In this document: piece by piece, positions 8,833-16,644 of the stretch
Position numbering within the stretch: position 1 is the first letter of the stretch
Layout of the letters: each line of letters opens with the position of its first letter
Assembly (NCBI GenBank): GCA_041223665.1
Contig: JBCLQO010000009.1
Span: forward strand, 61,595 to 85,594
From: Lachnospiraceae bacterium 46-15
Lineage (GTDB): Bacteria > Bacillota > Clostridia > Lachnospirales > Lachnospiraceae
DNA length: 24,000 nucleotides
Reading direction: 5' to 3'
Program-made: the position numbers and the translations under genes
Notes under the pieces: generated by a model
Told to the model about the DNA's origin: nothing
Seen by the model: the letters and a program-made list of their open reading frames with translations, nothing else
Databases searched by the model: none

Positions 8833-11532
8833 ATGATGAAGATGTCGGAGATTACAATTGTAAAAGGCGAAGAGTTTAAGATATCGGTAAAGAAAGAGAT
8901 TCAGGAAAATGATATTTTTATAAATGAATACAGGCGGGCTGCAGTTATGCTGAATGAGATTGCGGGGGTTTTGAAGGAGGCGAAAAAAGAAGAGGCAGTT
9001 TGTTTATGGAAAGAGAGCGATTTTGAAAATAATATTATTGCATTTTGCGGGGAGCGGGGCGAGGGGAAAAGCAGTGTGATGCTGACCTTCGCCAATGCGG
9101 TGTATGAGGATAAAAACAGGGAAAATGCTATTTTTTTGGAGTGTAAAAATTTAAAGAAGCTGCATTTTGCAGAGCCGATTTTGATAGATCCGTCTTTGTT
9201 TGATGATGTACATAATGTGCTGGATATTGTATTGGCGAAGCTTTTCCGGCGCTTTTGTGTATATTATGAAAATAACAACCAGAGTGTGGGCGAACAGGCA
9301 AGGGAGCGGCTGCTCAATCGATTTCAGACAGTTTACCGTTATGTTTCGCTGATTAATAACCAGAAACAAATGCTGGACGATGAGTTTGATTATGAAGGAA
9401 ATATCAGTAAATTGAAGAAGCTGGGAGAAAGCTCTGCGCTGAAAGAGGAATTGGAAAAACTGGTGAAAGAGTATCTGAAAGTTATGGGCGGATGTGAAAA
9501 AGAGAGCCAGCTTCTGCTTGCAATTGATGATTTGGATTTGTGCAGTGCAAACGCTTACAAAATGACGGAGCAGATTCGGAAATATTTAATCATTCCCCAT
9601 GTATTTATTGTTATAAGTGTGAAGATTGAGCAGCTGGAGCTGTGTATCCGGGAAAAGAATCTGAAAGATTTTCAGGAAATTTATAAAAATAAAGAAGAAA
9701 ATATATATGGGCAGTTAAACAGGGAAGTAGAGGTGATGGCTGAGCGGTATGTGGCAAAGCTGATTCCGAAGAAGAGGCGGATTTATCTTCCGAAGGTACA
9801 GAATTTTGAAGAAGTGCGTATTGTTTATAAAGAAACGCAGGAAGGGGAAAAGCTATGGGATTCTAATGAAAAGAAGGGCTTTATTTGTGCAGTGCTGGAT
9901 TTGATTTATGACAGGACAGGAATGCGCTTTTTGCCGGAAGAGGGCGGGAGCAGCTATCTGCTGCCAAACAACTTGAGAGATATGATTAGCTGGATGGCGG
10001 TAATTGCAGAAATGGAAAATCCGGAAGGCAAGGATGCTGTTTATCTCCAGAATATAAAGAAGTTTGAAAAATATTTTCAGGAATGGACAGAAGATAACCT
10101 AAAGCTATATGACGGACTGGATTTGCAGGATATAGGAAATATGAAGGCGTTTTATTTACATAGGGCGGCACGGTGCATACTGGAAGAAATACGCCAGGAT
10201 ATTGACAGGAAATTTGCGGAACAATCCGAATCATTTATAAAGAATCAGCCGGCTGGTTTTTCACAAATCATGAGTTGTCTTGAGAATTTAAAAAACAGGC
10301 TGGTGGACATGCATAAAGGGGCAGGTATCTGTCAGCTGCGCACGTTGTATACGATAAAGCTGAATAAATTTTTAAGGAGCAGCCGGGGGAATGAAATGGT
10401 AAGGTTTCTGGACGGATATATCTGGGGGAAAGGGTTTTCAGGTTTGATTCCTGCGTATGGGAACACAAAGATCGACCGCTCACGGTTTTCTATAGGAATG
10501 ATCAAGGCTTTTAATAAAATCTTGGAAAAAGTGGATAAAAATGCAGAAGGATTGGAGATTCCTGAGGACGTGAAACGGTATACGTTGTCCAATATTCCGG
10601 GACAGAATCGGGAGTCTTATATAAAAGCGTGGATGCTTCTGGGACTGCTCTCAAACCTGCAAAATGATAAAGGGGAACTCCAATGTTTGGCGGATGGCGC
10701 GCTTATATCGGGAAACAGGCAGCCGTCCAGCTATATTCAAATCAGCCTGGAAAATTATCTGGCAGGTTTATGCAGCCTGGAGTTCATGTATGAAAAGATG
10801 GGGATGAGGCTGCTTGGTATAGAGGATAAAGAATTTCAAGAGGTAACTGCGGTTTTAGCGGATAAAAATCAGGCGGGCATTCAATGCGCAAGAACAATTG
10901 CTTCAAATGTGGATGTGGCGCTGGGAGTCAGGGGCTACTGCATGAAAAACCGGAATTACAAGGAAAGGACAAAAGATGAAACAGAGCGCAGCTGGAGGCT
11001 GGCAGAACTTTTCTTTAAGAATGTGGCGGGCTATATGAAGCAGCAGGGAATGGAGTATAACCCACATGATTTGGATATTTTTTCGGTAGGTACAGAAGAG
11101 GAGGGAATTTGCATCAGTGAATTGTATGCGGAGCTTTTGGATTTGAGTATACAAGATATGGAGTTAAAGAACCAGCAGGAAAAAAGCGAGCAAATAGAGA
11201 AAGCCGTAGCAGAGTTTAGAAGGGATCTGGAGGAAATCCCAGAGAAGTGGAATCCGAAACCAGTCAATGTAGCTGGATGGATAAATAGCACAGTAGCAGA
11301 ATCGGTTAAGAGAAACTTGGAGAATCTGGCCCTTGATGTGAAGAATTACATGTGGGAACATAAAAGACAGCCAGAAGGCTTGGATGTGGAAGGGCTGTGC
11401 AAATTATACGAAAGTGTTATGCAGGGCTATCTGAAAGGGAAAAGGACAGAACTTCCAGAAGAAGTGAAAGAAGAGTATAAAAGGTTTGCAGCAGTTTTGA
11501 ACAGCATGAAAATAAAGACAGATGAGAATTAA
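8833..11532 (+). CDS. rdrA: Large P-loop NTPase with KAP-like Walker A/B spacing; RdrA-like component of a RADAR-type defence pair
   Basis: 899-aa ORF with three in-frame ATGs (8833, 8836, 8842). GGAAAGG at 8826-8832 favours 8842. Walker A is FCGERGEGKSSV (nt 9049-9075). Walker B is QLLLAIDDLDLC (nt 9511-9537), about 150 aa downstream, which is a KAP-type insertion. The remaining roughly 660 aa has no motif I recognise. The ORF is followed 26 nt later by a deaminase ORF. The CDS itself is near certain; the family call rests on architecture, not on a search. Confidence 0.65.
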   Translation: MMKMSEITIVKGEEFKISVKKEIQENDIFINEYRRAAVMLNEIAGVLKEAKKEEAVCLWKESDFENNIIAFCGERGEGKSSVMLTFANAVYEDKNRENAIFLECKNLKKLHFAEPILIDPSLFDDVHNVLDIVLAKLFRRFCVYYENNNQSVGEQARERLLNRFQTVYRYVSLINNQKQMLDDEFDYEGNISKLKKLGESSALKEELEKLVKEYLKVMGGCEKESQLLLAIDDLDLCSANAYKMTEQIRKYLIIPHVFIVISVKIEQLELCIREKNLKDFQEIYKNKEENIYGQLNREVEVMAERYVAKLIPKKRRIYLPKVQNFEEVRIVYKETQEGEKLWDSNEKKGFICAVLDLIYDRTGMRFLPEEGGSSYLLPNNLRDMISWMAVIAEMENPEGKDAVYLQNIKKFEKYFQEWTEDNLKLYDGLDLQDIGNMKAFYLHRAARCILEEIRQDIDRKFAEQSESFIKNQPAGFSQIMSCLENLKNRLVDMHKGAGICQLRTLYTIKLNKFLRSSRGNEMVRFLDGYIWGKGFSGLIPAYGNTKIDRSRFSIGMIKAFNKILEKVDKNAEGLEIPEDVKRYTLSNIPGQNRESYIKAWMLLGLLSNLQNDKGELQCLADGALISGNRQPSSYIQISLENYLAGLCSLEFMYEKMGMRLLGIEDKEFQEVTAVLADKNQAGIQCARTIASNVDVALGVRGYCMKNRNYKERTKDETERSWRLAELFFKNVAGYMKQQGMEYNPHDLDIFSVGTEEEGICISELYAELLDLSIQDMELKNQQEKSEQIEKAVAEFRRDLEEIPEKWNPKPVNVAGWINSTVAESVKRNLENLALDVKNYMWEHKRQPEGLDVEGLCKLYESVMQGYLKGKRTELPEEVKEEYKRFAAVLNSMKIKTDEN

Positions 11533-11558
11533 GACAGCGCACGAAAAGAGGAGCATAT

Positions 11559-14126
11559 ATGGATATCGAAAAAGGGAGCCTGGAGATATTATTTTTGAAA
11601 ATTCCATATAATAAAATTTCAGTCAGGCAATCCATAGGCGGGGGACGGCACGATTATGGGAAAGTTTCGGAAGAATTGTACATGCAGTATGCCCAAAGCG
11701 TTTTTCCGCGCTATTCTGAGGATGAGAGGCAGAATCACTACCTGAAATTAGTCCAGGATATGAAGCAAAATCCGGAAGGGCAGCCGAATGTTTTCCGGTT
11801 TATTATGGGAATTGCAAAGAGGCTGCTCATATATGACGGAAATGAGATTACATGCAAATTTGACGAAATGCTGCGGTGGCGGGAGATATCCTTTCAGTTG
11901 GGGCAGGACTTTTTCGCTTGCGCGTTTCTGGCAGCACATGATTTAGAGTGGGGGTATCAATGCAAAAGCTTTTCGTGGCAGCCAATTATACGCAGCGATG
12001 ACAGCCGGTTACATAATATTTTGGAACAGGGGCTGGCAGAGAACCATTTTCATCTGACAGGTTCTACGAAGGTGTTTGAACTGAACTGGATATGTGTGAT
12101 GAATTTGATTGACGGGAGATGGCATGATTTCAGGAAGATTCCCGGCGCTTTGCAGGTTCATCAGGCGGACAGGGTCAGGAGTGAAGGGAAGCAGGAGGGA
12201 TTTTATGCGGAATGCCAGAGAGCGGCGCTTTACCGGGTTTATTTGTTTGCAGTTCTGAAAGGAAATGAGGGCTTAAAGAAGGTAATTTCAAAAATCATGG
12301 AAAAGGCAGATAGCCATATTCCGATGGAGCTGCTGGTGGGGGAAATCCAGGATGCCATAGTTCTGGCAAAACATGTCTATGGCGCGCGGGTGGAGGACAG
12401 ATATATTTTGGATTATGCGTTTGAGAAAGATATGACAGATTGTAATCAGAGAGAGTATTATCTGCTGGCGGGTGAACGGAGGTTTTTGTATGAATGTTAT
12501 AAGGCGTGTGTTTCTGGGGATTTTGGCGCTTATGAAAAAAATCTGTTTTATGTTTATCTCTCTATCCGTACCCATTTCCGCGGGGAATTGATTCAGGTAA
12601 ACAGACAGGTAGGATTTGAGAATTTCAGCAAGTATCAGGACAGGAAGGAGATTTTTATTGAAGGGCAGAAGGAGTATGAGGATGAGCTGGTTCGGCTGGC
12701 TTTAAATGGAACGTTGAAATGCCAGAATATAGTTTCCCTGGAGGCGCGCATCTGTCCGAAGAAGAGCGCTTTAAAGTTGTATGGCGCCATTAAAAAGAAT
12801 CAGGCAATCGTGAAAGGGAATTCTGACAGAAGTAAGGAGGAGAAAAAACAGTCAGATGAAAAGCAAGCGAAAAAGATCATATATGTATTGCATTTTCCTA
12901 AGCAGAAAGACGAAAAGTTTTCCGTGGGTTTGCCGAGAAACCACAATGTGAGGATGGATACAAAAAGAAAAGCGAGGAGTATTGCGTCGCTGCTGGAAAA
13001 GGGAACAGAGGTAAATGGACAAATCCGGGGAATCGATACGTGTTCCAGTGAAATCCATTGCAGGCCGGAGGTATTTGCCCAGGCATTCCGGTATCTGTTG
13101 GATTTGGAGTTTTCGTGCAGGGAAGGAGTGCATAGGCGGCATGACAGGCATGGATGGAGAACGAAGCTGCACGCTACGTATCATGCAGGGGAAGATTTTT
13201 TGGATATTGCGGACGGGCTGCGGGCGATAGATGAAACCCTGTTGTTTTGCGGTTTAAAAAGGGGAAGCAGGATTGGGCACGGTCTTGCCATGGGAATAAA
13301 TCCGGATGAGTACTATAAATATAAAGGGTATAAGCTGGTCATGCCAAAACAGCTTTTACTGGATGACATTGCCTGGCTGTTAAGTAAAGCGGAAGAGACG
13401 GGCTGTGTCATAGAGAACCGACTGAAGGCAGAGCTTAAAGAAAGATATTGCAGTTTGTATGATGAGATTTACCGGGAACATGTGAGAGGAAAGTTTAAGG
13501 CGTCGGTGGCGGAATATTATCAGAGCTGGAAACTCAGAGGGGATAATCCGCAGGTATATCGGCTGGAGGAACGGGAATTTCTGAAAAGGCTAGAACAAAC
13601 GCCGCTGCTCAGATTTGACAGATATGAGTTCAATGACAGGGTTAGTAACCATATCAGAAAAATAGAATCCTGCAGGGAACTGTATTTTGCCTATCATTAC
13701 CATCAGAAGGTGCGGGAGATTGGAGATGAGAGGATAGAATTAAAGGTAGACCAGCGGTATGAGGCGCTTATATGTCAGATCCAGGATAAAATGATTCAGC
13801 AATTGGTACACAGAGGGATTGGAATCGAAACAAACCCTTCATCAAACTATTTGATAGGAACTATCACAAAATATGAGGAACATCCAATCCTGCGGTTTAA
13901 TTCAAGAAAGCTGAAGCCAGTTCAGCCGAATATGTCCCTGAACGTATCAATTAATACAGACGACCAGGGAGTATTTGACACTTCGCTGGAAAATGAATAT
14001 GCGCTTATGGCGCTGGCATTGAGAAAGGCAAAGGATAAGGACTGTCGGCCGCTGTATGATATTGAGGATATTTATGAATGGATAGATTATGTCCGCAAGA
14101 TGGGATTGGAGCAGATTTTTTCATAA
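11559..14126 (+). CDS. rdrB: Divergent, enlarged adenosine/AMP-deaminase-fold protein; RdrB-like component of a RADAR-type defence pair
   Basis: 855-aa ORF with SD AGAGGAG (11547-11553) 5 nt before ATG 11559. The full amidohydrolase/ADA motif set is present in canonical order: ENHFHLTGS (H163/H165, nt 12045-12053), TYHAGEDF (H542-E545, nt 13182-13193), SRIGHGLAMG (H574), IETNPSSN (aa 756-763) and SINTDDQGVFD (D801/D802, nt 13959-13964). Confidence 0.72.
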   Translation: MDIEKGSLEILFLKIPYNKISVRQSIGGGRHDYGKVSEELYMQYAQSVFPRYSEDERQNHYLKLVQDMKQNPEGQPNVFRFIMGIAKRLLIYDGNEITCKFDEMLRWREISFQLGQDFFACAFLAAHDLEWGYQCKSFSWQPIIRSDDSRLHNILEQGLAENHFHLTGSTKVFELNWICVMNLIDGRWHDFRKIPGALQVHQADRVRSEGKQEGFYAECQRAALYRVYLFAVLKGNEGLKKVISKIMEKADSHIPMELLVGEIQDAIVLAKHVYGARVEDRYILDYAFEKDMTDCNQREYYLLAGERRFLYECYKACVSGDFGAYEKNLFYVYLSIRTHFRGELIQVNRQVGFENFSKYQDRKEIFIEGQKEYEDELVRLALNGTLKCQNIVSLEARICPKKSALKLYGAIKKNQAIVKGNSDRSKEEKKQSDEKQAKKIIYVLHFPKQKDEKFSVGLPRNHNVRMDTKRKARSIASLLEKGTEVNGQIRGIDTCSSEIHCRPEVFAQAFRYLLDLEFSCREGVHRRHDRHGWRTKLHATYHAGEDFLDIADGLRAIDETLLFCGLKRGSRIGHGLAMGINPDEYYKYKGYKLVMPKQLLLDDIAWLLSKAEETGCVIENRLKAELKERYCSLYDEIYREHVRGKFKASVAEYYQSWKLRGDNPQVYRLEEREFLKRLEQTPLLRFDRYEFNDRVSNHIRKIESCRELYFAYHYHQKVREIGDERIELKVDQRYEALICQIQDKMIQQLVHRGIGIETNPSSNYLIGTITKYEEHPILRFNSRKLKPVQPNMSLNVSINTDDQGVFDTSLENEYALMALALRKAKDKDCRPLYDIEDIYEWIDYVRKMGLEQIFS

Positions 14127-14131
14127 AAGTT

Positions 14132-14169
14132 CCCCTGTATTTTCACCATATAAGGAGAAAATACAGGGG
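14132..14169. terminator. Shared hairpin terminator between convergent rdrB-like and vanZ-like genes
   Basis: Perfect 12-bp stem CCCCTGTATTTT (14132-14143) / AAAATACAGGGG (14158-14169) with a 14-nt loop. It fills most of the 49-nt gap between the two stop codons. Confidence 0.55.
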
Positions 14170-14175
14170 ATTATT

Positions 14176-15207
14176 CTACATATCAAAAAACCAGTCTTTT
14201 TCTCTTTTGGCCCGCCTGCGCCTTTTAGGGGGGACCGCCTGCGGCGGCTGTGAAGGGCGCGGCGGCTGCTCATCGATTCCCCAGTCATTTGCCCTCGCGG
14301 GGTCTTGCCAGTCAGGGGAATAGGTTTCATCACGGGGGCTGTCGATGTCGATAGCTTCCTCGTCAAGCCATTCCTCTTCCGGTTCCTGATAAGACCGTTC
14401 CGGCCGCTGCCAGTAATCATCCTGTGTACCACGTGAAGGGGGCGGATAGCTGCTTTGCTGTTGGCGGGGTGGTTCGTAATAGCTGCCTTGCGGGGGATAG
14501 GGCGGTTCACGATAGCTGCCCTGCGGCGCATAAGGTGGTTCATGATAGCTGCCTTGCGGCGGATAAGGCGGCTGCCGATATCCTTCCGGTTCCCGGTAAG
14601 GGGGCGCCGGATATCCTTCCCGGCTGTAAGGCTGACGCGGATACGGTACATCGGAATATTCGCCGTCATAGCCGGTTGTATCTTTGAACCGCTGTTTCTT
14701 TCCGCGCATTTTCCGGTTCCTTTTCGGACGGAAAATGGTTTTTCGTCCCGTCCACCCGATAATGCGTACCAGAAGAATTCCAAAGAAGATTCCTACGCTG
14801 TCGATGCATACATCCTTTGCAGAAGGGCTGCGCCCCGCAACCAGGGACTGGTGATATTCATCCCCGCAGGCAAAAGCCACGCAGATGAAACCCGCCGTCA
14901 GCATCAGCAGAAAACCATGGAGGCCGTATACATATAGTGGAAAAGCCACAGCCACGGCAAGGGCGAAATATTCAGCCATATGTGCCAGTTTCCGTGTGAT
15001 AAAATGGATTTTATCTGCCCACTCTGCTATCTGCCATTCTTCGAGGTTTGCGTCGAAAATGTAGTCGGCCGCCTCTATGATTTTACAGCTGGCTTTGTAG
15101 CTCATCTGTGAGGAAACCTCCCCCGGCTGGGCAGAAAAGGAGAAAATCATATACATAAGCAGCAGTGCCGGGAGAAACGACAATGGCTTTAATAAACTTC
15201 GAATCAT
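14176..15207 (-). CDS. VanZ-like membrane protein with a Pro/Tyr/Gln-rich repetitive cytoplasmic tail
   Basis: ORF 14176..15246. The preferred start is ATG 15207, which lies 8 nt after AAGGAGG. The N-terminal half has VanZ-like motifs (ITRKLAHMAEYFALAVAVAF; CGDEYHQSLVAGRSPSAKDVCIDSVGIFFGILLV). The C-terminal half is low complexity with PPYxPQGSYxE repeats and an acidic, Trp-containing end. Confidence 0.75.
   Translation of the reverse strand: MIRSLLKPLSFLPALLLMYMIFSFSAQPGEVSSQMSYKASCKIIEAADYIFDANLEEWQIAEWADKIHFITRKLAHMAEYFALAVAVAFPLYVYGLHGFLLMLTAGFICVAFACGDEYHQSLVAGRSPSAKDVCIDSVGIFFGILLVRIIGWTGRKTIFRPKRNRKMRGKKQRFKDTTGYDGEYSDVPYPRQPYSREGYPAPPYREPEGYRQPPYPPQGSYHEPPYAPQGSYREPPYPPQGSYYEPPRQQQSSYPPPSRGTQDDYWQRPERSYQEPEEEWLDEEAIDIDSPRDETYSPDWQDPARANDWGIDEQPPRPSQPPQAVPPKRRRRAKREKDWFFDM
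14471..14569. repeat. 3 x 33-bp in-frame tandem repeat inside the vanZ-like gene, with degenerate copies flanking at about 14441-14600
   Basis: Units 14471-14503, 14504-14536 and 14537-14569 (ggttcRYRatagctgccYtgcggSNNataRggY). They encode EPPYPPQGSYY / REPPYAPQGSY / HEPPYPPQGSY-type 11-aa repeats on the minus strand. The repeats also explain the pile-up of spurious ORFs here. Confidence 0.8.
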
Positions 15208-15249
15208 AAAATTTGTACCTCCTTTTAAGAAAGTGTCCAGGGTCAACCT

Positions 15250-15278
15250 ATCATAACACCTTGGAGGTCTGCTGTCCA
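15250..15278 (-). promoter_or_regulatory. Possible internal promoter for the vanZ-like gene (TGGACA-17 nt-TATGAT on the minus strand)
   Basis: On the plus strand, TGTCCA at 15273-15278 and ATCATA at 15250-15255. I saw no terminator in the 78-nt mgtE-vanZ gap, so read-through from mgtE is equally possible. Confidence 0.3.
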
Positions 15279-15285
15279 GAGGCGT

Positions 15286-16644
15286 TTAACCCAATCCCAG
15301 CAGCCGTGTGGCAAACTGGAAGTAAACCAGCAGTGAGATAGCATCTACAATCGTGGTGATAAACGGGCTTGCCATAACAGCCGGGTCGAATCCGAGCCGG
15401 GATGCAATCAGCGGCAGGGTACAGCCTACAACCTTCGCGCAGAAGATGGTGACAAACAGCGTCAGGCAGATGGTGAATGCCACCAGTATCGTTAGATGGT
15501 CGACGAGCAGCAGTTTTCCGAAATTGCACACGGCCAGGGTAAGCCCGCAGAGTAAGGCTACACGGACTTCTTTCCAGATGACACGGAAAATATCACGGAA
15601 CTCTACTTCTTTCAAAGAAATTCCGCGGATGACGGTTACGGACGCCTGGCTTCCTGAGTTTCCTCCGGTATCCATCAGCATAGGGATGTAGGCGGTCAGG
15701 ACGACATATTTTGACAGGGCGTCTTCGAAGCTGGTAATGATAAATCCGGTAAAAGTCGCGGAAATCATCAGGAGCAGCAGCCAGGGCATACGGCTTTTCC
15801 AGAGATCGAAGGTGGTCTGTTTCAGGTAGGGTTTGTCTGCCGGAACGATAGCAGCCATCTTTTCAATATCTTCCGTGGTTTCCTCTTCCATGACCTCCAG
15901 CACGTCATCAATGGTGACAATGCCCACCAGACGTTCTTCACGGTCAACCACGGGCATAGCCAGGAATCCGTATTTGGAGAACTGCCGGGCAACGGTTTCC
16001 TGATCCTCCAGGGTAGATACGGAAATGATGTTTTCTTCCATCAAATCTTCCATGGTTTCGTCAGAACCTGCCATAATCAAATCGCGGATAGTCACGACGC
16101 CCATCAGCTGCCTGCCTTTTGCGCAGACATAGCAGTTGTTAATCGTTTCTTTATTAATACCGCTGCGGCGGAGATGCAGGATAGCTTCTTCAGCTGTCAT
16201 TTTTGGGCGCAGCTCTACAAACTCTGTGGTCATGATGCTGCCGGCGGAGTCGTCAGGGTACTGCAGGATGGTATTAATCATTTTACGCTTTTCAGCGTCT
16301 GCCTGGATAAGAATACGCTTTACCACATTAGCAGGCATTTCTTCCACAAGGTCAACGGCATCATCCACGTAGAGTTCATCTACGACTTCTTTCAGCTCGT
16401 TATCGGAGAACCCTTTAATCAGCATATGCTGTGTGTCGGGCTCCATTTCAACAAAAGTATCGGCGGCCAGCTCTTTAGGGAGCAGGCGGTACAGAAGAGG
16501 AACAGTTTCCTCGGGAATATCTTCAAACAGAGAAGCCACATCGGCGGCGTTCATTGTGGTGAGGATATCACGGAGCGTTGCGTACTTTTTCTCCTCTGCC
16601 AGCGATTTGATACTTTTTTTCAGGGTTTCAAAAGCATCGGTCAT
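15286..16644 (-). CDS. mgtE: Magnesium transporter MgtE
   Basis: 452 aa with the MgtE N-domain, tandem CBS region (VVTIRDLI..., VGIVTIDDVLEVMEEE) and C-terminal TM domain (MDTGGNSGSQ, PFITTIVD). SD AGGAGGAA lies 6 nt before the ATG. An M-box riboswitch lies upstream. Confidence 0.95.
   Translation of the reverse strand: MTDAFETLKKSIKSLAEEKKYATLRDILTTMNAADVASLFEDIPEETVPLLYRLLPKELAADTFVEMEPDTQHMLIKGFSDNELKEVVDELYVDDAVDLVEEMPANVVKRILIQADAEKRKMINTILQYPDDSAGSIMTTEFVELRPKMTAEEAILHLRRSGINKETINNCYVCAKGRQLMGVVTIRDLIMAGSDETMEDLMEENIISVSTLEDQETVARQFSKYGFLAMPVVDREERLVGIVTIDDVLEVMEEETTEDIEKMAAIVPADKPYLKQTTFDLWKSRMPWLLLLMISATFTGFIITSFEDALSKYVVLTAYIPMLMDTGGNSGSQASVTVIRGISLKEVEFRDIFRVIWKEVRVALLCGLTLAVCNFGKLLLVDHLTILVAFTICLTLFVTIFCAKVVGCTLPLIASRLGFDPAVMASPFITTIVDAISLLVYFQFATRLLGLG

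What the first reader, a model, noticed from the sequence alone, without database searches (positions are those of the whole stretch)
11559..14126. Deaminase scaffold is heavily expanded: about 160-aa N-terminal extension and about 375-aa insertion between the HxH and HAGE motifs
In ordinary adenosine deaminases (about 330-360 aa) the HxH motif lies near the N-terminus, and HAGE follows within roughly 200 residues. Here HxH is at aa 163-165 and HAGE at aa 542-545. The intervening segment includes a Lys/Glu-rich stretch, SDRSKEEKKQSDEKQAKK (aa 422-439), and another roughly 180 aa separate GHG from the ETNPSSN/NTDD motifs. These insertions are candidates for oligomerisation or partner-binding surfaces, since RdrB is known to form large cage-like assemblies. 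They may also specify a substrate different from free adenosine. The catalytic residues are all intact, so an active enzyme is expected.
Basis: partly seen in the sequence, partly recalled or inferred. Interest (0 to 1): 0.6.

Follow-up and report, generated by a model that had tools for sequence, protein, structure and literature searches.

The report
Divergent RADAR deaminase RdrB, standard architecture
The oversized deaminase is a divergent, unannotated copy of RdrB, the ATP-deaminating enzyme of the known RADAR anti-phage system, and its extra segments are the three insertions already shown in E. coli RdrB to build a 12-subunit shell, so the finding is real but ordinary for this family.

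Summary
The size is a family trait, not a local expansion. A full-length AlphaFold model (pLDDT 87) matches solved E. coli RdrB (8fnv, 8hr7) at TM 0.68-0.78. Canonical adenosine deaminases match only the barrel core. The five published catalytic residues of E. coli RdrB align with H163, H165, H542, E545 and H574.

Against a 330-aa adenosine deaminase from the same bacterial order, the net extras are:
- +151 aa at the N-terminus
- +148 aa between strands 1 and 2
- +46 aa in two variable loops
- +161 aa after H574

So the "375-aa insertion" is a spacing; the true excess is about 194 aa. These segments correspond to RdrB insertions 1-3 of Duncan-Lowey et al. 2023, which form the dodecamer interfaces.

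Motif spacings here (163/379/259) are close to the medians of 145 family representatives (169/390/261). The Lys/Glu-rich stretch is the most variable loop in the family (5-49 aa), not a conserved surface.

The upstream gene folds like RdrA, with S. suis 8fnu as best hit, and precedes rdrB in 76 of 76 informative loci.

This scan has noted RdrB-like giant deaminases before on other DNA, in at least 37 genomes.

Verdict: a new member of a known kind, of low interest.

The parts
8842..11532 (+). rdrA, the RADAR AAA+ ATPase. The ORF opens at 8833 but the likely start is 8842, giving 896 aa. Walker A is GERGEGKS and Walker B is LLAIDD.
   Evidence: NCBIfam RdrA 2.9e-20. Walker motifs found. Homologues are 896 aa. 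AF2 model pLDDT 81.5. The top 20 Foldseek hits are all RdrA, with S. suis 8fnu at E 6.7e-14.
11559..14126 (+). rdrB, the RADAR adenosine-deaminase-fold effector, 855 aa.
11559..12008 (+). N-terminal helical extension (aa 1 to about 150), equivalent to RdrB 'insertion 1'. Net +151 aa relative to canonical ADA.
   Evidence: Helices 2-131 in the model. Profile positions 41-238 align with E. coli RdrB 31-226 at i-E 5e-5. The insertion is defined in PMC9994260.
12033..12053 (+). Barrel strand 1 carrying the zinc ligands H163 and H165.
   Evidence: Strand 159-165. Aligns with E. coli RdrB H152/H154. Invariant in 87 relatives.
12105..12713 (+). All-helical region between strands 1 and 2 (aa about 183-385). 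It contains RdrB 'insertion 2', net about +148 aa relative to ADA. Its middle part (aa about 239-326) does not align between clades.
   Evidence: Secondary structure. Spacing H165 to E395 is 230 aa, against 82 in ADA. The gap between the two aligned stretches is seen.
12816..12875 (+). Hypervariable Lys/Glu-rich loop (aa 420-439), between barrel helix 2 and strand 3.
   Evidence: Lowest conservation and occupancy in the protein. Length 5-49 aa among relatives. pLDDT below 50 at 422-426. ADA has a gap here.
13101..13169 (+). Second variable loop or hairpin (aa 515-537), before strand 5.
   Evidence: pLDDT below 50 at 523-530. Variable in sequence and length. Absent from E. coli RdrB and from ADA in the alignments.
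13182..13193 (+). HAGE motif: zinc ligand H542 and catalytic E545.
13275..13283 (+). GHG motif: zinc ligand H574.
13293..13793 (+). Helical 'insertion 3' (aa about 579-745), net about +161 aa. It carries the conserved SW-LRGD-P-Y motif at aa 656-667.
   Evidence: hhalign shows a gap against ADA here. Helices 597-752 in the model. Aligns with E. coli and Aliivibrio RdrB. Y653, L659, R660, G661, D662, P664 and Y667 are nearly invariant.
13827..13847 (+). ETNPSSN on strand 7 and the loop after it.
13953..13964 (+). NTDD at the end of strand 8, with the catalytic aspartates D801 and D802.
14132..14169 (.). 13-bp inverted repeat between the convergent rdrB and vanZ genes. Probably a bidirectional terminator.
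   Evidence: Read directly from the sequence. The consensus scan did not call it.

Best explanation
The gene is rdrB of a two-gene RADAR anti-phage system (rdrA 8842-11532, rdrB 11559-14126) in a mouse-gut Lachnospiraceae, genus Hominisplanchenecus or a close relative. The protein is an adenosine-deaminase TIM barrel with a complete zinc site and catalytic residues (H163, H165, H542, E545, H574, D801/D802).

Three helical additions are grafted onto the barrel: an N-terminal extension, a block between strands 1 and 2, and a block after the last zinc histidine. These are the family-wide RdrB insertions 1-3.

By homology with E. coli RdrB (inferred, not shown here), insertions 1 and 2 would pair protomers across 2-fold axes and insertion 3 would join them at 3-fold axes into a hollow 12-subunit shell. 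RdrA rings would dock over the outward-facing active sites. On phage infection the enzyme would convert ATP and dATP to ITP and dITP and so block phage replication.

The Lys/Glu-rich stretch and a second loop (aa 515-537) are hypervariable helix-to-strand loops on the non-catalytic face of the barrel. From barrel topology they most likely point into the hollow interior, where length and sequence are unconstrained. This last point is inference.
For: Fold:
- The AF2 model has pLDDT 87 and pTM 0.85.
- Foldseek gives E. coli RdrB 8fnv/8hr7 at E about 1e-27 and TM 0.68-0.78 over the full length. Canonical ADAs reach a query-normalised TM of only 0.15-0.27.

Sequence:
- The NCBIfam RdrB model aligns over 35-852 of the protein and 24-845 of 850 model positions, E 8e-55.
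- The family profile matches 8fnv at E 1e-68, including the N-terminal extension.
- hhalign against the PGAP-named RdrB of Aliivibrio pVSAL840 gives probability 100 and E 2e-45. That protein has near-identical motif spacing, 164/519/550/794.
- The published catalytic residues align and are invariant.
- The core aligns with ADA at probability 97.6, with gaps exactly at the insertions.

Partner:
- The RdrA fold matches S. suis RdrA 8fnu at E 7e-14 and E. coli RdrA at 1e-8 to 1e-11.
- An rdrA-like gene lies directly upstream in 76 of 80 loci from three phyla. The other four loci lack upstream DNA.

Distribution:
- The gene is patchy, in 2 of 7 genomes of the genus, as is usual for defence genes.

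Published roles of the insertions and the ATP-to-ITP activity come from PMC9994260.
Against: Scores are far below the NCBIfam equivalog cut-offs: RdrB 187 against 800 bits, RdrA 72 against 600 bits. PADLOC matches cover only part of each protein. Identity to solved RdrB is only 16-18%.

The Glu triad E595-E597, which the paper showed to be essential for the E. coli 3-fold interface, aligns with H641/F646/K647 here, in a poorly aligned region. The 3-fold contacts must therefore differ in detail.

The RdrA profile finds no PDB chain by sequence. The RdrA TM-scores are modest, 0.33-0.49.

Oligomeric state, substrate and defence activity were not tested and cannot be tested with these tools. No model coordinates were available, so the insertion boundaries rest on secondary structure and sequence alignment.
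Confidence: 0.88

Rival explanations
1. This is a RADAR-type pair whose deaminase assembles differently from the E. coli dodecamer, or recognises a different nucleotide. The cause would be clade-specific changes in insertion 3: loss of the Glu triad and gain of the conserved SW-LRGD-P-Y motif. The extra hairpin at aa 515-537 could also contribute.
For: E595-E597 of E. coli RdrB have no acidic counterpart at the aligned positions. Y653, L659, R660, G661, D662, P664 and Y667 are nearly invariant in this wide clade, and partly in Aliivibrio RdrB, but not in E. coli RdrB. The middle of insertion 2 (aa about 239-326) does not align between clades.
Against: The whole-chain fold superposes on E. coli RdrB at TM about 0.7-0.78. 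The published RADAR systems themselves share only 24-28% identity in RdrB, yet all were treated as one system and all protected E. coli (PMC9994260). The alignment around the Glu triad is unreliable.
Confidence: 0.08
2. The protein is a housekeeping purine-salvage enzyme, an AMP-deaminase-like or enlarged adenosine deaminase, and its extra domains are regulatory rather than defence-related.
For: It is the only Pfam A_deaminase (PF00962) family member in this genome. JGI labels one homologue 'adenosine deaminase'.
Against: No AMP-deaminase family or structure was matched. The gene is present in only 2 of 7 genomes of the genus and 4 of 41 relatives. It is always preceded by an RdrA-type ATPase. 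Most genomes of the order (53 of 61 searched) also lack a canonical ADA, so its absence here is not special.
Confidence: 0.02
3. The insertions are RNA-binding surfaces of an RNA-editing enzyme, as in the original RADAR model of A-to-I editing of transcripts.
For: RADAR was first described as RNA editing, as recounted in PMC9994260. PDB entries 8hra and 8hrb are titled RdrA rings 'in RNA-loading state'.
Against: PMC9994260 reports no strong evidence for RNA editing, an active site like those of mononucleotide deaminases, and direct ATP-to-ITP conversion. The structural neighbours here are mononucleotide or nucleoside deaminases: ADA, ADAL and Cad1. The only basic, low-complexity stretch is hypervariable.
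Confidence: 0.02

Closest known systems
RdrB of the E. coli RADAR system (PDB 8fnv, 8fnw, 8hr7; Duncan-Lowey et al. 2023, PMC9994260)
   Same: It shares the full-length fold (TM 0.68-0.78). It has the same five catalytic residues. The order of elements is the same: N-terminal extension, HxH, helical insertion, barrel strands 2-6, insertion after the last zinc histidine, then strands 7-8. The upstream RdrA partner is also the same.
   Different: Identity is 16-18%. This protein is 57 aa longer. The Glu triad of the 3-fold interface is not conserved at the aligned positions. This protein has an extra variable hairpin at aa 515-537. The middle of insertion 2 does not align.
RdrB of Aliivibrio salmonicida plasmid pVSAL840 (PGAP-named, WP_012548895.1)
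   Same: It has 848 aa with HxH 164, HAGE 519, GHG 550 and NTDD 794, almost the same spacing as here. The motif YQSW-LR in insertion 3 is shared. rdrA lies directly upstream.
   Different: About 25% identity over the aligned part. Only residues 309-840 align with the profile of this clade.
RdrA of Streptococcus suis RADAR (PDB 8fnu)
   Same: It is the best structural match for the upstream gene (E 6.7e-14). It has an AAA+ domain followed by a long helical C-terminal lobe.
   Different: 14% identity and TM only 0.44-0.49. No match is detectable by sequence.
Canonical adenosine deaminase (Add/ADA, Pfam PF00962; e.g. 3ou8, 2pgf)
   Same: It shares the TIM-barrel core, the zinc ligands, the catalytic Glu and Asp, and the signatures HxHLxGS, HAGE, GHG and NTD(D/N).
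   Different: It has 330 aa against 855. It lacks all three insertions and both variable loops. It is a monomeric or dimeric nucleoside enzyme (PMC9994260).
Cad1, the CARF-fused adenosine deaminase of type III CRISPR (PDB 9c67)
   Same: It is another defence-associated ADA-fold enzyme, reported to convert ATP to ITP according to the titles and abstracts. It gave weak structural and PADLOC matches to the core.
   Different: It is regulated by a fused CARF sensor. It has no RdrB insertions and no RdrA partner.

Membership tests
RdrB (RADAR deaminase) | Adenosine-deaminase TIM barrel with a His tetrad for zinc and a catalytic Glu | tested here: met
   H163, H165, H542, E545 and H574 align with E. 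coli RdrB H152, H154, H498, E501 and H530. H542, E545, H574 and D801 align with ADA H197, E200, H221 and D278. H163 and H165 carry the ADA HxHLxGS signature. All are invariant in 87 relatives.
RdrB (RADAR deaminase) | Three large insertions: an N-terminal extension, an insertion dividing the core, and an insertion after the last catalytic His | tested here: met
   Net +151, +148 and +161 aa at those three places relative to ADA. The full-length fold matches 8fnv/8hr7. The protein is collinear with the NCBIfam RdrB model over 35-852.
RdrB (RADAR deaminase) | Score above the curated NCBIfam equivalog cut-off (NF041744, 800 bits) | tested here: not met
   186.7 bits. This is an annotation threshold tuned to proteobacterial sequences. 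It explains why public records call the relatives 'hypothetical protein'.
RdrB (RADAR deaminase) | Assembly into a hollow dodecameric shell | not testable with these tools
   No multimer prediction or experiment was available. The Glu triad of the E. coli 3-fold interface is not conserved at the aligned positions.
RdrB (RADAR deaminase) | Deamination of ATP/dATP to ITP/dITP | not testable with these tools
   Inferred only, from intact catalytic residues and homology (PMC9994260).
RADAR system (RdrA + RdrB) | Adjacent co-oriented rdrA encoding an AAA+ ATPase with a helical C-terminal lobe | tested here: met
   There is a 26-bp gap between the genes. Walker A and B are present. NCBIfam RdrA E 2.9e-20. 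Foldseek top 20 hits are all RdrA. Adjacency holds in 76 of 76 informative loci.
RADAR system (RdrA + RdrB) | Protection against phage | not testable with these tools
   No experiment was possible. Patchy distribution within the genus fits a defence gene.
AMP deaminase (housekeeping AMPD) | Match to the AMP-deaminase family, or shared insertions | tested here: not met
   Pfam gave only PF00962 at E up to 0.01. No AMPD chain appeared in the PDB sequence searches. None appeared among the 50 Foldseek rows shown.

The most novel reading that the evidence does not exclude
This very large clade covers gut Lachnospiraceae, other Clostridia, Bacteroidota and Fusobacteriota. It has hundreds of 50%-identity clusters, and its listed public homologues are labelled 'hypothetical protein' or generic adenosine deaminase. 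It may build its shell with a different 3-fold interface: the invariant SW-LRGD-P-Y motif in place of the E. coli Glu/Arg zipper. Its hypervariable charged loops may line the lumen and have a role of their own, for example retaining nucleotide or tuning assembly. If so, the clade would be a structurally distinct RADAR subtype.
Probability: 0.1. Interest if true: 0.45.

Novelty: new member of a known kind. Interest (0 to 1): 0.15.

Why it matters
It matters little beyond annotation. The result shows that a protein recorded publicly as 'hypothetical' or as generic adenosine deaminase is the effector of a RADAR defence system. The RADAR family is also much larger in gut anaerobes than the under 1% of genomes reported in 2023. 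The search found 2651 clusters at 50% identity with E up to 1e-10, and relatives in 444 species genomes.

The size of the protein needs no new explanation, because the insertions are the published shell-building elements. The alignment does give a concrete list for anyone studying RADAR diversity. It separates conserved parts (SW-LRGD-P-Y in insertion 3, W107 in insertion 1) from freely variable parts (loops 420-439 and 515-537, and the middle of insertion 2).

Tried and rejected
1. Sequence searches of RdrA against the PDB found nothing, either as a single sequence or as a 75-sequence profile. Only the fold search identified it.
2. tblastn of RdrB against the phage collection found no match.
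3. I looked for an empty site in sister genomes using the DUF554 flank. Only one genome matched, and it has a different downstream gene, so this said nothing about island boundaries. I dropped it.
4. Model coordinates are not exposed to the Python box. I could not superpose the model on 8fnv or on ADA, nor measure where the loops point. Insertion boundaries therefore come from DSSP strings and HMM/hhalign alignments.
5. The AMP-deaminase rival was rejected because no family or structure match was found.
6. The idea that the Lys/Glu stretch is a functional binding surface was rejected. It is the least conserved and most length-variable segment.
7. The paper by Gao et al. 2023 that goes with entries 8hr7-8hrb did not turn up in the two paper searches I ran. 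Only its PDB titles were used.
Full report
**Observation**

The ORF at 11559-14126 on the + strand is open for 855 codons and is preceded by AAGAGGAG seven bases upstream.

Pfam recognises only residues 718-818 as adenosine deaminase. This is why the protein looks mostly unassigned.

**Identity**

- PADLOC matches two RdrB models (E 5e-32 and 1e-28), and the upstream 899-codon ORF matches RdrA (9e-12).
- The NCBIfam RdrB model aligns end to end, 35-852 of the protein against 24-845 of 850 model positions, at E 8e-55. The score is 187 bits against a curated cut-off of 800.
- RdrA scores 72 bits against a cut-off of 600.
- By sequence, the only solved relatives beyond the last barrel strands are E. 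coli RdrB entries 8fnv, 8fnw, 8hr7 and 8hrc. These give E 4e-26 with the single sequence and E 1e-68 with a profile of 87 diverse relatives.
- The profile match includes a separate significant stretch over the N-terminal extension and the HxH strand (profile 41-238 against chain 31-226).

**Structure**

An AlphaFold2 model built on 86 homologues is confident (mean pLDDT 87, pTM 0.85). Only four short segments fall below pLDDT 50: 26-28, 208-211, 422-426 and 523-530.

Foldseek against the PDB returns E. coli RdrB chains as the top eight hits. They have E 1e-27 to 3e-25, TM 0.68-0.71 normalised by the query and 0.75-0.78 normalised by the target, and 16-18% identity. Canonical adenosine deaminases, human ADAL and Cad1 follow at E about 0.01. 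They cover only the core (query-normalised TM 0.15-0.27). No AMP deaminase is among the 50 rows shown.

**Where the extra residues are**

Four canonical adenosine deaminases from genomes of the same order have HxH at 12-15, HAGE at 188-202 and GHG at 210-224, in 320-339 aa. Profile-profile alignment of the RdrB-like family with these enzymes has probability 97.6 and pairs residues 385-821 with ADA 86-298. H542, E545, H574 and D801 fall on H197, E200, H221 and D278.

The gaps on the ADA side fall at three places:
- 420-445, the Lys/Glu loop
- 516-536
- about 579-745

Counting from conserved anchors gives these net extras:

| Segment | This protein | ADA | Net |
|---|---|---|---|
| Before HxH | 163 | 12 | +151 |
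| H165 to E395 | 230 | 82 | +148 |
| E395 to H542 | 147 | 101 | +46 |
| H574 to E757 | 183 | 22 | +161 |
| Three remaining intervals together | 130 | 111 | +19 |

The total is 525, which equals 855 minus 330.

The true excess between HxH and HAGE is about 194 aa. Barrel strands 2, 3 and 4 (391-398, 440-446, 489-495 in the model) lie inside that interval.

**These additions are already described**

Duncan-Lowey et al. 2023 (PMC9994260) report that E. coli RdrB has three additions:
- an N-terminal extension, "insertion 1"
[quoted passage not shown] Mutating E595-E597 in insertion 3 abolishes defence. The zinc and catalytic residues are H152, H154, H498, E501 and H530. The enzyme converts ATP and dATP to ITP and dITP.

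In the HMM alignment those five residues align with H163, H165, H542, E545 and H574 of the protein here.

The same paper notes that RADAR systems share only 24-28% identity in RdrB, limited to the C-terminal part, and 22-25% in the RdrA ATPase domain. The low scores found here are therefore typical of RADAR.

**The architecture is a family trait**

An exhaustive HMMER scan of 1.84 billion representatives found 3251 clusters at E up to 1e-3, 2651 at 1e-10 and 945 at 1e-30. Nearly all of the best 150 are full-length and collinear, at 798-1041 aa (one is a 705-aa N-terminally shortened sequence).

In 145 of them the median positions and spacings are 169 (N-terminus to HxH), 390 (HxH to HxGE) and 261 (HxGE to DD). 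The values here are 163, 379 and 259.

A PGAP-named RdrB on Aliivibrio salmonicida plasmid pVSAL840 has 848 aa, with HxH 164, HAGE 519, GHG 550 and NTDD 794. It aligns with the family profile at probability 100 and E 2e-45, and it shares a YQSW-LR motif inside insertion 3.

**Conservation inside the insertions**

Across 87 relatives at 31-57% identity, the invariant or nearly invariant residues include:
- W107 in the N-terminal extension
- R226, D285, Y286, Y333, G352, F356 and R362 between strands 1 and 2
- D602, W606, Y653, L659, R660, G661, D662, P664, Y667 and Y712 in insertion 3

The Lys/Glu stretch is the opposite case. Residues 421-435 have the lowest occupancy (0.63) and the lowest consensus fraction (0.15) among close homologues. 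The loop ranges from 5 to 49 aa in the close clade and from 7 to 41 aa in the wide family, with no shared sequence. It is also predicted with low confidence.

This loop and the 515-537 loop are helix-to-strand connections, so they lie on the face of the barrel opposite the active site. The published shell has outward-facing active sites and a hollow centre. I therefore infer that these loops point into the lumen.

**One real difference from E. coli RdrB**

E595, E596 and E597 align with H641, F646 and K647 here, in a poorly conserved stretch. The 3-fold contacts may therefore be made differently, perhaps by the conserved R660/D662 motif. This is the basis of the minor rival and of the novel case. 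It remains untested.

**Partner and context**

The upstream gene has Walker A GERGEGKS and Walker B LLAIDD, and it ends 26 bp before rdrB. Its homologues are 896 aa, so the start is probably the ATG at 8842 rather than 8833.

Neither the single RdrA sequence nor its profile finds a PDB chain. Its AlphaFold model (pLDDT 81.5) does. The top 20 Foldseek hits are all RdrA, led by S. suis 8fnu (E 6.7e-14, TM 0.44-0.49), then E. coli RdrA in 8hr8, 8hr7 and 8fnt. The next fold is Cdc6/Orc1 at E 0.03. hhalign against the Aliivibrio RdrA gives probability 94 over the ATPase domain.

In 80 loci from species genomes, an RdrA-like gene lies directly upstream on the same strand in 76. These loci come from Lachnospiraceae, other Clostridia, Bacteroidota and Fusobacteriota. 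The other four loci have too little upstream DNA to tell.

The nearest relative is in Hominisplanchenecus murintestinalis DSM 111139, at 91% identity. Within the genus the gene was found in 2 of 7 genomes, and in 4 of 41 relatives overall. The flanking genes are ordinary: DUF554, ABC transporter and GntR regulator upstream, VanZ and MgtE downstream.

**Verdict**

The gene is a divergent, publicly unannotated member of the RADAR family with the standard RdrB architecture.

Earlier notes of this scan describe the same kind of giant RdrB-like deaminase in at least 37 other genomes.

Noticed in passing
window 8833-8842: The rdrA ORF opens at 8833 (MMKM...), but close homologues are 896 aa and the GGAAAGGA ribosome-binding site abuts the first ATG. 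The real start is probably the ATG at 8842.
   Followed up: partly
window 14132-14169: A perfect 13-bp inverted repeat with a 12-nt loop lies between the convergent rdrB and vanZ genes. It is likely a shared bidirectional terminator. The consensus terminator scan missed it.
   Followed up: no
L029:3835-4995 and L053:4447-6992: In Lachnospiraceae bacterium 3-1 and A4 the rdrA gene is reduced to a C-terminal remnant of 386 and 175 codons respectively. In A4 the rdrB ORF is cut to 663 codons. These look like decaying RADAR loci.
   Followed up: partly
whole genome G000: RdrB is the only Pfam A_deaminase (PF00962) family member in this 3.2-Mb genome, so there is no canonical adenosine deaminase. 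The same was true of 53 of 61 genomes sampled from the order.
   Followed up: partly
L003 (G003:C2:119749-125313) against window 10062-15560: The sister-species genome carries the same rdrA-rdrB-vanZ-mgtE arrangement at 88% DNA identity. The DUF554 flank of the window was not found in that genome by DNA search.
   Followed up: no
L096:6250-10451 (Aliivibrio salmonicida pVSAL840): The annotated RADAR pair on this conjugative plasmid sits next to a GTPase with a 'GTPase-associated system all-helical protein GASH' and two hypothetical genes. This looks like a small defence island.
   Followed up: no
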